DNA from: Eledone cirrhosa
Lineage: Eukaryota
NCBI GenBank assembly: GCA_964016885.1
Contig: OZ024740.1
Span: 380,494,001 to 380,558,000 of the forward strand
Direction: 5' to 3'
DNA length: 64,000 bases
Both the position numbers and the translations under genes were made by a program. The stretch's first letter is position 1. Every line of letters starts with the position of its first letter. Positions 87-28,581 of this stretch are shown piece after piece. The notes under the pieces are model-generated. The model was not told where the DNA came from. It did not search any database and saw only the letters and a list, made by a program, of their open reading frames with translations.

Positions 87-131
87 AATATTGAACTAGT
101 TTCGTTGTTGTTACAACTCATCAGCAATATT
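87..131 (-). ncRNA. Minimal type I hammerhead ribozyme (family E), probably in a PLE terminus
   Basis: Minus strand reads aatattg-CTGATGA-gttgt(aaca)acaac-GAAA-ctag-TT-caatatt: 7-bp stem I, 5-bp stem II, palindromic stem III, GUU triplet. Confidence 0.8.
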
Positions 132-761
132 TACCTATCTTCCGGCCTCTCTAGAGAATCGTAAAAGCACATATCGTTATATGCTTTTTCTATGAAAATT
201 AGTAGTGGGCAGACTAACTTGCATAGAGTGTGAGTAAGTACCGGTTCAACGGAGACGATAAAAACAAATAACGAAACGAAATTAAATTTCGTTTCGTTTG
301 TAACTCACTTTTGTATGACTGACGCTTAAACAATTAAGTTAAAGATGTACATCCATATATGTATACTGAAATACTAGTATGTATATGAATACACACACGT
401 ATACATATGTAGGTGTACCAAGTTTTTTTCACTGGTCACTTTACTGTGAGTGGCCAGCTATTCTTTAACTTAATTATATATATATATATTTATATATATA
501 TATATTTATATATTTATATATATATAGATTTATATATATATATATTTATATATATTTATATATATATATATATTTATATTTATATATATATATTTATATA
601 TATATATATATTTATATATATATATATATTTATTTATATATATATATATATTTATTTATATATATATATATTTATATTTAAATATATATATATATATTTA
701 TATATATATATATATATATATATATATATATATATATATATATATATATATATATATATAT

Positions 762-898
762 AGTTAGAATCTCATCTATATTAAAACTATATTTATATAT
801 ATATATATATATATATATATAGTTAGAATCTCATCTATATTAAAACTATATTTATATATATATATATATATAGTTAGAATCTCATCTATATTAAAACT
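762..898 (+). repeat. Three 27-bp micro-inserts (762-788, 821-847, 872-898) derived from the family C PLE terminus
   Basis: agt+TAGAATCTCATCTATATTAAAACT; the capitalised part is identical to 23862-23885. Copies are separated by (TA)n. Confidence 0.85.
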
Positions 899-939
899 AT
901 ATATATATATATATATTTCTATATATAGAGAGAGAGAAA

Positions 940-1147
940 TGAGACGTAGAACCAAACTCTCAAACCAGTTGAATAATCAGCAAACCAAAAACAAGGAATC
1001 CTATTTGAAATGTGCATTACTTGGCACCGAGATTGCACTCAAGCTTTCCCATAACAATGAGAGGGCAAAGAAAGAGAACAGGGCCATAGAAAACATTAAA
1101 ACAAACCCTAAGGCCTTCTTTAAATTTGCAAAAGAAACTGCCTCATT
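940..1147 (+). mobile_element. CR1-group LINE ORF2 fragment (EN-RT linker)
   Basis: Translates ...[18 protein letters not shown], resembling the IKxNPKxF(F/Y) linker motif of CR1-group LINEs. Confidence 0.6.
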
Positions 1148-1400
1148 TATATATATATATATATATATTTATATATATATATATATATATATATATATAT
1201 ATATATATATATATATATATATATATATATTTATATTTATATATATATATATATTTATATATATATATTTATATATATATATATTTATATATATATATAT
1301 ATATATATTTATATATATATGTATTTATATATTTATATATATATATATATATATATATATATATATTTATATATATATATATATTTATATATATATATAT

Positions 1401-1580
1401 TTCCCTGGATTTCACTTAATTCTGTGGATGAATTTATATCCTGATTCTCTTTAAGATGAGTTTAAATTATTTTTCCCACATCTTACGTTAACTATTTTTC
1501 CCATTTTGACGCTATAGTCACTTATATACTATGGAATGCTGTTCGCTTTTCGCTGCAGTGTTTTCTATACCTTTCATTTA
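1401..1580 (+). repeat. About 180-bp dispersed repeat in (TA)n, copy 1
   Basis: Nearly identical to 17841-18020. Confidence 0.85.
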
Positions 1581-25185: not shown

Positions 25186-25187
25186 AT

Positions 25188-25752
25188 ATGTTTTTCATAT
25201 ATATTTACCTAACCTGCGATTATCTGTTTCTCTCTTTCTCTCTTACTGCTTATCTGTTTCTCTCTGTTTCTTATCTGTTTCTCTCTGTTTCTCTTACCTT
25301 CTTTCGTCCCCTCTGTCAGTTAACACTTTCTCTCGACTGACCTCTTCCTCGCACTTCCACTCACTCGCTCTCTGTTTCTCCCCTTCTCACTTCCTCCCGT
25401 TCGCTAGTAGTGGCGTTCCTTCTTTCTCACACCGCATTCACGGCGTACGGTCTGCTTCTCTGACCGCTCATGAAATTCACCCAGCTTATGCTGATTGGAT
25501 AACTATCATGATTGCTTGCTGTTTTCCCGGCCTTCGGTTTGCTTTTCCTTCTGTTGTTTACTTGTCTCACTCGCTTTACGCGTTTCACTTGTCCCAATAG
25601 CTTATTTTAGTTATTGCTCGCACCAACCTGAGGTATCTGATTATTAATGCGATGAAATACCAATGATGGTTGGCAAATCACTGACGAGGGACTAATTTTA
25701 TAATATCTAATCCATGTGCAACCATGCAGTATTCTTCTCCCCATGTTTTTCA
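25188..25752 (+). mobile_element. Family H element, copy 3
   Basis: Similar to 2172-2714, with a small internal duplication. Confidence 0.8.
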
Positions 25753-26101
25753 TATATATATATATATATTTATATATATATATATATTTATATATATATA
25801 TATATATATATTTATATATATATATATATTTTTATATATATATATTTATATATATATATATTTATATATATATTTATATATATATTTATATATATATATA
25901 TTTATATATATATATTTATATATATATATATTTATATATATATATTTATATATATATATATATATATATATATATATATATATATACATATATATATATA
26001 TATATATATATATATATATATATATATATATATATATATATATATATATATATTTATATATATATATATATTTATATATATATATATATATATATATATA
26101 T

Positions 26102-26454
26102 ATAAAATATTAAACAAATAATGAATAAACAATTCCTTATATTAAACAAAAAAAGTTCATTATTTAACGATCGTTTCTAGGATATATATGTGTTAGAATT
26201 GGTATGCATATTCAACAGATCTATGTACAAAATTATACAAAATTATACAAATTATCAAGATTAAATATACATACCAAACACATATATACGCCGTCTTCAT
26301 TATTTGTTTAATATTTTATCTTGACTCTGTATACCGTTTATCTTTCACCGAAAGTGGTTTTTCATTACATCTCTTCTTTCCATGATATCCGGAATACATT
26401 GAGTTCTTCATACGGATTGGACACTACCGTAAACTCTTGGTAGATTTATCTACA
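26102..26454. mobile_element. Family D inverted terminal insertion
   Basis: Minus arm is cut inside the HHR core at about 26299; the plus arm carries the tail seen at 3759-3893. Confidence 0.8.
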
Positions 26455-26506
26455 TATATATATATATATATTTATATATATATTTATATATATATATATA
26501 TTTATA

Positions 26507-28581
26507 TACGATATTAAATAAATGGAAACTATATTTATAAAACCATATTTATTTCATTATATATATTTCAGGGATATCATATTAAAAATATGGTATGCCT
26601 TCTTCACACAAAATACAATATAAACAGTCTTATAAATAGATAGATTTGATAAATCTTACAACTTCAACTTCCATTTAAAAAGTTGATTTGGTAGTGAAAA
26701 ATGTTAGGGACAGTTATAAAAAGAAAGAAAGAAAAAAGCGAAGAAAAAGAAGAAATGCATGCAACTAAATAGAGATAGATATAGAGAGATAGATAGAGAG
26801 AAGAAATTCGTGTAAAGAAACAGAGAGAGATAGATAGAGAGAGAAAAAACACAGAGGGAGATAGATAGAGAGAGAGAGAGAGAAGAGAGAGAGAGAGAAA
26901 AAATAGAGAGAGATAGATATAGATAGAGATAGAGAGAAAGAAAATACGTAGTTGGGCACCAGTTGAATGACGTATCAATGATATATTTATTTATTTATTT
27001 ATTTAGTATCCTAAACTTTTGGAATGATTTCTGCTAGACAGGATTTGGTAAATAATTTTGGTTTTGTTTGCTTTTGATTCTGATGCTTATAATGAACTTG
27101 GCATTATATTGTCAATTAATTTTGAAGGGTTGATCTCTGTGGTTGATTTGCGGGGCATACTGTGTTTTATTTTTTATATTTTTTAATTTTTTGATATATT
27201 GATATCTGTTGTCTATTTATGCTTGAACGATAATCATGTAGAGTAAAGACAAGAATAGTATTGTTAAAATTAATGTAGATTCTATATATATTTGTGTGTA
27301 TGTACACATATATGTATACTAGAATTTTTATAGCACAATGAGAATGTTTTCATGTGAAATAGGAATTTGCAGAGTTGATCACGTAAATTCACATGGAAGT
27401 CTATAGTATCGAATCTGGGATAACCTTCTATTTTCTTTTTTCTTTTTTCTTTTTTCTTTTTTCTTTTTTCTTTTTTCTTTTTTCTTTTTTCGTTTTTCTT
27501 TTTTCTTTTTTCTTTTTTCTTTTTTCTTTTTTCTTTTTTCTTTTTTCTTTTTTCTTTTTTCTTTTTTCTTTTTTCTTTTTTCTTTTTTCTTTTTTCTTTT
27601 TTCTTTTTTCTTTTTTTCTTTTTTCATAAAAGTGCATATATACTTATGTATTTCAATTTTTTTTGAAGTTTTTTATCTCAGTTTTTTATCTCAGTTTTTT
27701 ATCTCAGTTTTTTTTTTATCTCAGTTTTTATCTCAACTCTGATATAAACCTAGGAATTCTAAACTAGACATATGATCATCATTTTTCACACATTATTGAT
27801 ACGTGTCTCATTCATGAATACTGATATTTACATTATAATACCTAATTCATACGAATTGATATTTTTACATTGATGAAACATAATGTTTTAAATCTGCCTC
27901 GTTTATGTCTGGATATTTTTCTTTTCTCTCTATGTAACGGCTGTTTTCTCTCCTAACCACATATATCTCTCTCTACCTTAATACTAGAACTAAATAAATA
28001 AATAAATAAATATATCATTGATACGTCATTCAACTGGGTGCCCAACTACCTATTTTCTTTCTCTCTATCTCTATCTATATCTATCTCTCTCTATTTTTTT
28101 TCTCTCTCTCTCTTCTCTCTCTCTCTATCTATCTATCTCCCTCTGTGTTTTTTCTCTCTCTATCTATCTATCTCTGTTTCTTTACATGAATTTCTTCTCT
28201 CTATCTATCTCTCTATATCTATCTCTCTCTATTTAGTTGCATGCATTTCTTCTTTTTCTTCGCTTTTTTCTTTCTTTCTTTTTATAACTGTCCCTAACAT
28301 TTTTCACTACCAAATCAACTTTTTAAATGGAAGTTGAAGTTGTAAGGTATGTCAAATCTATCTATTTATAAGACTGTTTATATTGTATTTTGTCTGAAGA
28401 AGGCATACCATATTTTTAATATGATATCCCTGAAATATATATAATGAAATAAATATGGTTTTATAAATATAGTTTCCATTTATTTAATATCGTAAATATA
28501 CTCCAAATACTTGTTGAGTGCTTTTATATCAGTTATAAATATTTACTCGTTGTAACCCAACAATTTAAATAAAACTTTGCA
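26507..28581. mobile_element. PLE family A (subfamily 3) 3' UTR with a 0.5-kb inverted arm
   Basis: Arms about 26507-27006 and 27990-28494. HHR at 28386-28451 intact, 26550-26615 mutated. (TTTTTC)n expansion at 27430-27625. Confidence 0.88.

What the first reader, a model, noticed from the sequence alone, without database searches (positions are those of the whole stretch)
87..28581. (TA)n region as a sink for PLEs, with over 20 hammerheads from 6-7 families
Seen: HHR motifs from family A (9 copies, 6 with an intact core), B (5), C (3 here, 1 at 42.7 kb), D (3), and single motifs at 87-131, 17126-17160 and possibly 15884-16000. The families share only the CUGANGA/GAAA/UH core, usually with a palindromic stem III (CTAG, CGCG, TATATA, CGATCG, AATT, CATATG). 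At least three distinct GIY-YIG lineages are present. Inference: repeated targeting of (TA)n, perhaps with tract expansion at each insertion, built this 29-kb block.
Basis: partly seen in the sequence, partly recalled or inferred. Interest (0 to 1): 0.72.

Follow-up and report, generated by a model that had tools for sequence, protein, structure and literature searches.

The report
Twin RNA hairpins set retrotransposon ends
This stretch is a pile-up of Penelope-like jumping genes inside a TA repeat, and these elements and their relatives share a pair of small motifs, predicted to fold as RNA hairpins, that sit right beside the two places where inserted copies end and likely mark where the element's enzyme starts copying its RNA.

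Summary
The block holds 17 intact and 5 broken hammerhead motifs (shuffles: mean ≤0.15, max 2), but they come from only 12 insertions; fold-back arms and tandem units inflate the count. Two Hydra-clade GIY-YIG lineages are shown; a third is only a weak lead. (TA)n targeting, pLTR hammerheads, inverted arms and tails are known PLE biology. "Expansion at each insertion" is not supported: tract interruptions share one strand polarity (334:24) although inserts face both ways.

The new element is a conserved hairpin motif, usually twinned between hammerhead and start codon in Hydra PLEs: two copies in 20 of 37 related elements, spacing 55–83 nt. It has a 2-nt U-led bulge (49/49) and a covarying inner pair (48/49). 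Element ends lie 2–4 nt before either copy in 9 of 13 junctions of relatives. In the window, all 8 fold-back inserts of families A, C and D have one short and one long end, and hairpin 1 follows the short end in 7 (truncated in the eighth). Likely the two hairpins load a reverse-transcriptase dimer, so tail length equals hairpin spacing. I found no Rfam match and no mention in the papers searched. Function is untested.

The parts
468..29308 (.). Interrupted (TA)n array, 23 tracts with one strand polarity, split by 23 inserts; outside the annotated-looking gene (last WIPI3/WDR45B-like exon near 43.4 kb)
7215..13857 (.). Insert A2, Hydra-clade PLE: inverted arm 7215-10028 (ends at short end S), 71-nt jumped piece 10024-10094, forward copy 10095-13857 (ends at long end L)
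   Evidence: arms 99.7% identical over 2.8 kb; ends aligned
10102..12320 (+). Hydra RT + C-terminal GIY-YIG ORF, one frameshift near 10730
13671..13720 (+). Family A type I hammerhead (other intact copies 2940-2989 -, 7264-7313 -, 19556-19605 -, 23441-23490 +, 28394-28443 +; broken 19033-19082 -, 19248-19297 +, 26558-26607 -)
13770..13857 (+). Family A tail, 88 nt between short end S (after 13769) and long end L
   Evidence: 5 of 5 A inserts have one S and one L end; reads run into (TA)n at 13777 and 13855
13777..13799 (+). Hydra hairpin 1 of family A, 5 nt after the S arm stops matching (also 23547-23569 +, 28500-28522 +, 18954-18976 -)
2892..3165 (.). Insert A1: inverted hammerhead arm plus a forward arm that is only part of the tail (hairpin 1 lacks its 5' half)
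18897..19354 (.). Insert A3, short fold-back, L left and S right
19515..23627 (.). Insert A4, fold-back with 3' half of the ORF
26510..28579 (.). Insert A5, fold-back of 3' UTR pieces
23760..23951 (.). Insert C2: two hammerheads (23775-23813 -, 23825-23863 +), hairpin 23891-23912, tail about 67 nt
14321..14679 (-). Insert C1: broken-core hammerhead 14413-14451, hairpin 14361-14382, long end at 14321
3760..4301 (.). Insert D1: two hammerheads with 116-nt stem II, hairpin with a long insert (3806-3889 -), tail about 145 nt
26116..26450 (.). Insert D2: inverted hammerhead arm plus forward tail with hairpin 26324-26407
5467..6961 (.). Family B: 312-bp tandem units with five minimal hammerheads, folded back, about 35-nt tail; retrozyme-like
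15835..16848 (-). Second Hydra lineage: decayed GIY-YIG end, hammerhead remnant near 15880-15925
16966..17734 (-). Insert I: possible GIY-YIG C-terminus of another lineage, hammerhead 17129-17157, 36-nt inverted arm, about 46-nt tail
94..124 (-). Single hammerhead in an insert cut by the window start
14864..15249 (.). Insert G: fold-back with about 68-nt tail, no hammerhead or Hydra hairpin found

Best explanation
The block is a TA array filled by Penelope-like retroelements, several of the Hydra clade, whose ends lie just before one or the other of two conserved motifs, predicted RNA hairpins that likely load the element's reverse transcriptase at two fixed start sites. SHOWN: Hydra elements carry the motif GCTC-Y..R-UN-GAGCACU usually twice between hammerhead and ATG; copies end 2-5 nt before hairpin 1 (short end S) or hairpin 2 (long end L); fold-back inserts of families A, C and D have one S end and one L end; the tail is the stretch between the two. 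INFERRED: (1) the endonuclease cuts (TA)n on both strands, and because TA reads the same on either strand both 3' ends can prime. (2) A protein dimer binds both hairpins, so one DNA end is extended from L and the other from S on the same RNA or source. The two cDNAs are then joined by microhomology, giving head-to-head arms with a one-sided tail. (3) The hairpin used is never copied, so only a head-to-tail tandem restores both and stays mobile. (4) Transcripts starting in the pLTR carry the pair near their 5' end, which would yield the many short hammerhead-only inserts. The TA array itself was most likely there first and was lengthened by host slippage or unequal exchange.
For: Prevalence: of 46 ORF 5' ends found in 44 of 78 metagenome loci, 41 had at least 175 nt upstream. 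Of these, 22 have two strict motifs, 10 one and 9 none; by 37 clusters at 80% identity the counts are 20/9/8. Spacing is 55-83 nt, median 62. Controls on an earlier set of 43 anchors: two motifs in 0 of 8,600 shuffles, 0 of 247 ORF-interior windows, 0 of 43 antisense windows. Structure not built into the search: the 2-nt bulge starts with U in 49 of 49 motifs. The first inner pair is C-G 38, U-A 10, unpaired 1 (48 of 49 against a permutation mean of 31.7, 0 of 20,000); the next pair forms in 34 of 49 against 19.8; registers with a 0-, 1- or 3-nt bulge pair in 1, 0 and 8 of 49. Both states of the first pair occur in both main clades of an 18-protein tree, so at least 3 independent double changes by my reading. 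Ends: 9 of 13 junctions in 12 loci lie 2-4 nt before a motif; binomial P 1e-11 at p=0.03 and 5e-7 at p=0.1. A covariance model built from 13 relatives' motifs only returned 6 hits in the window, all at S sites of A (4) and C (2). A long-insert descriptor gave 9 window hits, 8 at S sites of A, C and D. Five of 5 A inserts have one S and one L end. One contig of run X4 joins L through 40 letters to the ORF start, and by eye those letters hold hairpin 2. Published Hydra consensuses carry the motif and by eye begin or end at these places (PMC8557442 supplement). In A1 and D2 the L arm stops within about 20 nt of S, as twin priming on one RNA predicts. A Poseidon PLE cuts and extends both strands, is predicted to dimerise and starts at two internal sites that bound its tail (PMC11167929).
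Against: No binding, initiation or expression data exist for any Hydra element here. The window hairpins are weak alone (z -0.3 to -1.6; model E-values 0.12-4). Four of 13 junctions do not fit (11, 21, 86 nt before a motif, or 32 nt past the start of one). 17 of 37 clusters lack a strict pair. The motif pattern was drawn by eye from the same loci, the long-insert pattern was widened after seeing D, and the 13 junctions were not collapsed for kinship. Hairpin 2 of family A rests on one contig of depth 7.5, compared by eye. Inserts B, G and I have tails without a clear Hydra hairpin. Most A arms overlap by hundreds to thousands of bases, which needs strand displacement or two templates. Covariation does not tell RNA from single-stranded DNA, or sense from antisense; a self-priming antisense model has been proposed for inverted arms (PMC3846280). 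The A2 fold-back junction itself was not among the joints listed.
Confidence: 0.6

Rival explanations
1. The twin motif is real but acts at another step: a DNA signal for the endonuclease that resolves the intermediate, or a promoter or translation element. Ends fall beside it because of the short AT-rich stretch before it.
For: The 12 nt before the motif are AT-rich and S and L show 2-6 nt of microhomology with (TA)n. The D. virilis Penelope endonuclease needs the tail in DNA for recognition (cited in PMC11167929). The motif lies 64-167 nt before the conserved N-terminal peptide.
Against: Four fitting junctions (L004, L015, L024, L034) have flanks that are not TA arrays yet end 2-4 nt before the motif. 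A variable 8-19-nt interior with covarying pairs and a one-sided bulge suits a single-stranded hairpin better than a duplex site.
Confidence: 0.22
2. One reading: PLEs both target and lengthen (TA)n at each insertion, so the element enzymes built the 29-kb block.
For: 6.8 kb of TA in 23 tracts flanks every insert; PLE reverse transcriptases are telomerase relatives (PMC8557442).
Against: Interruption polarity is 334:24 and does not follow insert orientation. Three copies of a 25-nt family C fragment with their TA spacers at 763-900 point to host tandem duplication.
Confidence: 0.1
3. The fold-backs and the density are products of host break repair at TA cruciforms, or of assembly error.
For: Arms are 93-100% identical within inserts; a CR1-like LINE piece in the block is also folded back (24068-24555); no record spans the laid stretch and the A2 junction was not listed. 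The TA polarity could be a sequencing bias.
Against: Inserts 84-98% alike reuse the same two ends. S is seen in raw reads of another study and in contigs of a second organism, and L in contigs of run X4. The same ends recur in unrelated Hydra elements.
Confidence: 0.08

Closest known systems
Hydra clade of C-terminal EN+ Penelope-like elements (Craig et al. 2021, PMC8557442)
   Same: DKT, CxCx5C linker, CxxC and CxH around E and N, no CCHH, hammerhead, (TA)n targets, inverted 5' copies, one-sided tail.
   Different: Family A unit is about 3.8 kb with a 1.45-kb 3' UTR (clade described as generally under 3 kb). Tails are 55-145 nt rather than the 30-40 bp given for PLEs. The twin hairpin is in the published consensuses, but the main text has no 'hairpin' or 'stem-loop'.
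Poseidon PLE of Anolis, PAc (Frangieh et al. 2024, PMC11167929)
   Same: Two internal start sites bound the tail; both strands cut and extended; predicted dimer; signal lies at the 5' end of the next tandem unit; hammerhead cleavage not needed in vitro.
   Different: PAc starts in one AC-rich stem-loop 111-118 nt inside the ORF. In Hydra the ends lie in the 5' UTR, each before its own copy of a clade-wide hairpin. Its supplementary figures were not visible to me.
Non-LTR retrozymes (Cervera and de la Pena 2020, PMC7229834; bioRxiv 10.64898/2026.07.22.740005)
   Same: Family B: non-coding 312-bp tandem units, each with a type I hammerhead.
   Different: B has a minimal hammerhead with a U-U first pair in stem II, is folded back and has a PLE-type tail; circular RNA not tested.
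L1 twin priming (recalled, no call)
   Same: Second target end primes internally on the template and gives an inverted arm joined by microhomology.
   Different: Here the second site is fixed by the element, and the arms usually overlap.

Membership tests
Hydra-clade PLE (family A) | Single RT ORF with C-terminal GIY-YIG, no N-terminal EN | tested here: met
   575 homologs at E<=0.001, best 120 at 34-45% identity; RT and C-terminal EN motifs aligned; one frameshift in this copy. Pfam gave no hit on the window pieces.
Hydra-clade PLE (family A) | CxCx5C linker; CxxC and CxH around catalytic E and N; no CCHH | tested here: met
   C387, C389, C395; C485, C488, E491, N503, C512, H514 invariant in 23 rows; definition; absence of CCHH judged by eye.
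Hydra-clade PLE (family A) | DKT in place of DKG; RWK motif | tested here: met
   DKT present; RWR in place of RWK, a variant also seen in homologs.
Hydra-clade PLE (family A) | Canonical hammerhead and insertion into (TA)n | tested here: met
Hydra-clade PLE (family A) | Length generally under 3 kb | tested here: not met
   10095-13857 plus about 40 nt is about 3.8 kb; a descriptive tendency, not a diagnostic.
Hydra-clade PLE (family A) | RT phylogeny with the published Hydra families | not tested
   Published consensuses were read but not put in a tree.
Naiad / Chlamys PLE | N-terminal EN, no canonical hammerhead | tested here: not met
   EN is C-terminal and hammerheads are present.
Type I PLE hammerhead | CUGANGA, GAAA, UH with stems I-III, often palindromic stem III | tested here: met
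   17 intact in the block against shuffle maximum 2; palindromic helix III is described for PLE hammerheads (PMC4209133).
Type I PLE hammerhead | G10.1-C11.1 pair | tested here: not met
   A has A-U first, B and C have U-U, D opens with C then a long arm; only 94-124 and 17129-17157 (after an extra A) show G-C.
Type I PLE hammerhead | Self-cleavage | not testable with these tools
   No RNA holder listed.
Non-LTR retrozyme (family B) | At least two consecutive non-coding tandem units each with a type I hammerhead | tested here: met
   312-bp units, five motifs, no long ORF; criterion.
Non-LTR retrozyme (family B) | Accumulation as circular RNA | not testable with these tools
Any Rfam family (twin hairpin) | Match to a covariance model | tested here: not met
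   0 matches at E<=1 in 10 of 78 loci; none over the window hairpins at E<=10.

The most novel reading that the evidence does not exclude
Hydra PLEs carry a clade-wide tandem pair of U-bulged RNA hairpins, one per subunit of an RT-endonuclease dimer. The pair fixes two start sites, acts as a ruler for the tail, drives coordinated priming from both ends of a cut in (TA)n, and is left behind at each round so that only tandems stay mobile. A 60-90-nt twin-hairpin cassette would then be a portable signal for programmed two-ended insertion of any upstream RNA into (TA)n.
Probability: 0.45. Interest if true: 0.85.

Novelty: new variant of a known kind. Interest (0 to 1): 0.66.

Why it matters
How PLEs choose their internal start sites, and why they leave one-sided tails and head-to-head arms, is named as an open problem (PMC8557442; PMC11167929). 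A short, conserved, twinned motif whose spacing matches the tail turns this into a direct mutational test and gives a marker for finding and bounding Hydra elements and their non-coding derivatives. The block itself shows how a long TA array collects PLEs, but that part is known biology.

Tried and rejected
No whole genome is held, so hammerhead density against TA content could be tested only inside the window and by read depth. Earlier-findings look-ups by place, words and sequence returned nothing. No RNA holder listed; this is no evidence on expression. Rfam hits to miRNA families are fold-back palindromes under gathering scores and were dismissed. A strict first descriptor missed B, C and D because of their first stem II pair. 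MAFFT misaligned the variable-loop motifs, so the model used 13 equal-length motifs of the 49. Three redundant units were dropped. Two of 20 two-motif units gave no usable protein for the tree. One of the 41 anchors (L063) may be false. Single-sequence folding did not support the window hairpins or the hammerhead folds beyond shuffles. The third GIY-YIG lineage could not be confirmed. Literature searches; none listed a paper describing the motif. The library lacks most subscription journals and Repbase reports, and preprint supplements and supplementary figures were not visible. The host was not identified; the best named homolog is from Argonauta hians at 40%.
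Full report
1. Observation. The window is animal DNA; a WIPI3/WDR45B-like gene lies on the minus strand at about 43.4-57.3 kb, so the block is outside it. TA tracts cover 6,825 of the first 29,306 bases and 109 of the rest, and 23 inserts lie between them. A type I hammerhead descriptor finds 17 intact motifs in the block and 1 outside it; 150 shuffles per set gave means of 0.03-0.25 and a maximum of 2. The 22 motifs belong to 12 insertions.

2. Proteins. The ORF at 10102-12320 has DKT, CxCx5C, CxxC and CxH and lacks CCHH, the marks of the Hydra clade, which is published as inserting in (TA)n (PMC8557442 section 11). 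A second Hydra lineage at 16507-16812 is 40% identical to it. A third lineage at 17562-17738 is only an Atlas lead (negative).

3. Anatomy. Twelve of the 23 inserts are fold-backs: five A, two D, C2, B, G, I and a LINE piece. All 5 family A inserts have one arm ending at a short end S and the other at a long end L, 88 nt further. Both D inserts (tail about 145 nt) and C2 (about 67 nt) do the same, and their ends recur between copies. B, G and I have tails of about 35, 68 and 46 nt but occur once each. In raw reads of run X15 (another study, same species label; RAD library, so depth is biased), 5,323 reads run from S into (TA)n. Three contigs of X5 (a second organism) do so too, and three contigs of X4 run from L into (TA)n. 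The hammerhead bin is 16-22 times deeper than the deepest ORF bin in all 4 runs, so short end modules are common genome-wide. X1 and X4 may share a study with the window's source and are not independent. The A2 fold-back junction was not among the joints shown.

4. The new element. One X4 contig joins L through 40 letters to the ORF start, and by eye these letters repeat the hairpin that follows S. To test this I fetched 78 related loci. Of 41 ORF starts with enough upstream DNA, 22 carry two copies of GCTC...GAGCACT (or a pairing variant), 10 carry one and 9 none; by 37 clusters the counts are 20, 9 and 8; spacing is 55-83 nt. Shuffled, ORF-interior and antisense controls never gave two (0 of 8,600, 0 of 247, 0 of 43). 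Features not in the search pattern appeared: a 2-nt 3' bulge led by U in 49 of 49 motifs, an inner pair C-G or U-A in 48 of 49 (permutation mean 31.7), and five pair types at the next position. The permutation ignores kinship; on a tree of 18 proteins I read at least 3 independent double changes. The outer pair changes to A-U in window families A, C and D and to U-A in L032 and L045. Rfam has no match in 10 loci.

5. Ends track the motif. Where a 3' copy runs into flank, 9 of 13 junctions lie 2-4 nt before hairpin 1 or 2; the other four lie 11, 21 and 86 nt before a motif, or 32 nt past the start of one. Four of the nine have flanks that are not TA arrays. A model built from relatives alone gave 6 window hits, each weak (E 0.12-4) but all at S sites of A and C; D folds the same motif around a long insert. 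In A1 the motif is truncated. In the supplement of PMC8557442, 4 of the 6 hits for the motif's 3' half are in the termini of Hydra consensuses (one consensus holds two of them), and by eye those consensuses start 2 nt before hairpin 1 or end 20-35 nt after it. Its main text has no 'hairpin' or 'stem-loop'.

6. Mechanism. Shown: twin motif, its covariation, its position beside both ends, and the S+L anatomy. Inferred: a dimeric RT-endonuclease binds both hairpins, cuts (TA)n on both strands and extends one end from L and the other from S; microhomology joins the cDNAs. A1 and D2, whose L arm stops within about 20 nt of S, look like twin priming on one RNA; longer overlaps need strand displacement or a second template. 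The hairpin used is not copied, which would explain why PLEs need partial tandems. Short A arms stop at positions equivalent to 13582-13598, and C2, D1, D2 and B fold back at the 5' side of the hammerhead; a transcript start there would explain the excess of hammerhead-only inserts. This agrees with the in vitro behaviour of the Anolis Poseidon element (PMC11167929). No Hydra protein has been tested here, and the dimer could not be modelled.

7. The TA array. Interruptions are ATTTA 334 times and TAAAT 24 times, with only 2 of 23 tracts reversed, while inserts face both ways. This argues against expansion by each insertion and for one polar array grown by the host. A strand-biased sequencing error cannot be excluded.

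8. Papers seen. PMC8557442: passages, section 11 whole, supplement searches and parts 52-53 of 59. PMC11167929: parts 1-2 of 4, and supplement text searched with no hits. bioRxiv 10.64898/2026.07.22.740005: part 1 of 5 and passages. PMC3846280, PMC13282606, PMC7229834, PMC4209133: passages only. 'Not in print' rests on searches of an open-access library. L1 twin priming and the LINE and gene names are recalled labels, except the PROPPIN Pfam hit.

9. Verdict. The block is a dense example of known PLE biology (interest about 0.35 on its own). The twin hairpin tied to both element ends appears undescribed and makes the tail and inversion problem directly testable. Novelty: new variant of a known kind. 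Interest 0.66.

Noticed in passing
window 24068-25195: CR1-like LINE piece (label recalled) inside the TA array with a 5' inversion and a 244-bp fold-back; a second piece of a similar LINE lies at 928-1142.
   Followed up: partly
window 2180-2708, 4825-5355, 25196-25746: Family E, three 530-bp copies with a roughly 15-bp direct repeat at both ends and, on the minus strand, the 3' half of a hammerhead (GAAA, CGCG, UA) behind a degenerate core; possibly a decayed retrozyme monomer.
   Followed up: partly
window 1404-1571 and 17844-18011: Family F, two 168-bp copies 98.8% identical, flanked by TA, no hammerhead or hairpin found.
   Followed up: no
window 763-900: Three copies of a 25-nt family C fragment (cleavage site to short end) separated by TA spacers; local tandem duplication.
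   Followed up: partly
window 3967-4242: Family D hammerheads have a 116-nt stem II, and the same family has a long insert in its Hydra hairpin.
   Followed up: partly
window 5634-6830, 23775-23863, 42657-42695: Families B and C open stem II with a U-U pair instead of G-C.
   Followed up: no
L010:2436-2780 and L036:2272-2567: Two different Hydra-type elements meet tail to tail in one short (TA)n tract, so shared use of a tract occurs in other organisms.
   Followed up: partly
window 42636-42764: The one family C copy outside the block is diverged, lacks its tail and has no TA array beside it.
   Followed up: partly
window 31707-32390: A 684-bp near-perfect palindrome outside the TA block, possibly a non-autonomous DNA transposon.
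   Followed up: no
window 39755-42260 and 49935-53076: Two RTE-like LINE copies (label recalled) in opposite orientation, 83% alike, and several tRNA-like SINE copies nearby.
   Followed up: no
window 43400-57300 (-): Exons of a PROPPIN-family gene (WIPI3/WDR45B-like); its last exon is about 14 kb from the block.
   Followed up: partly
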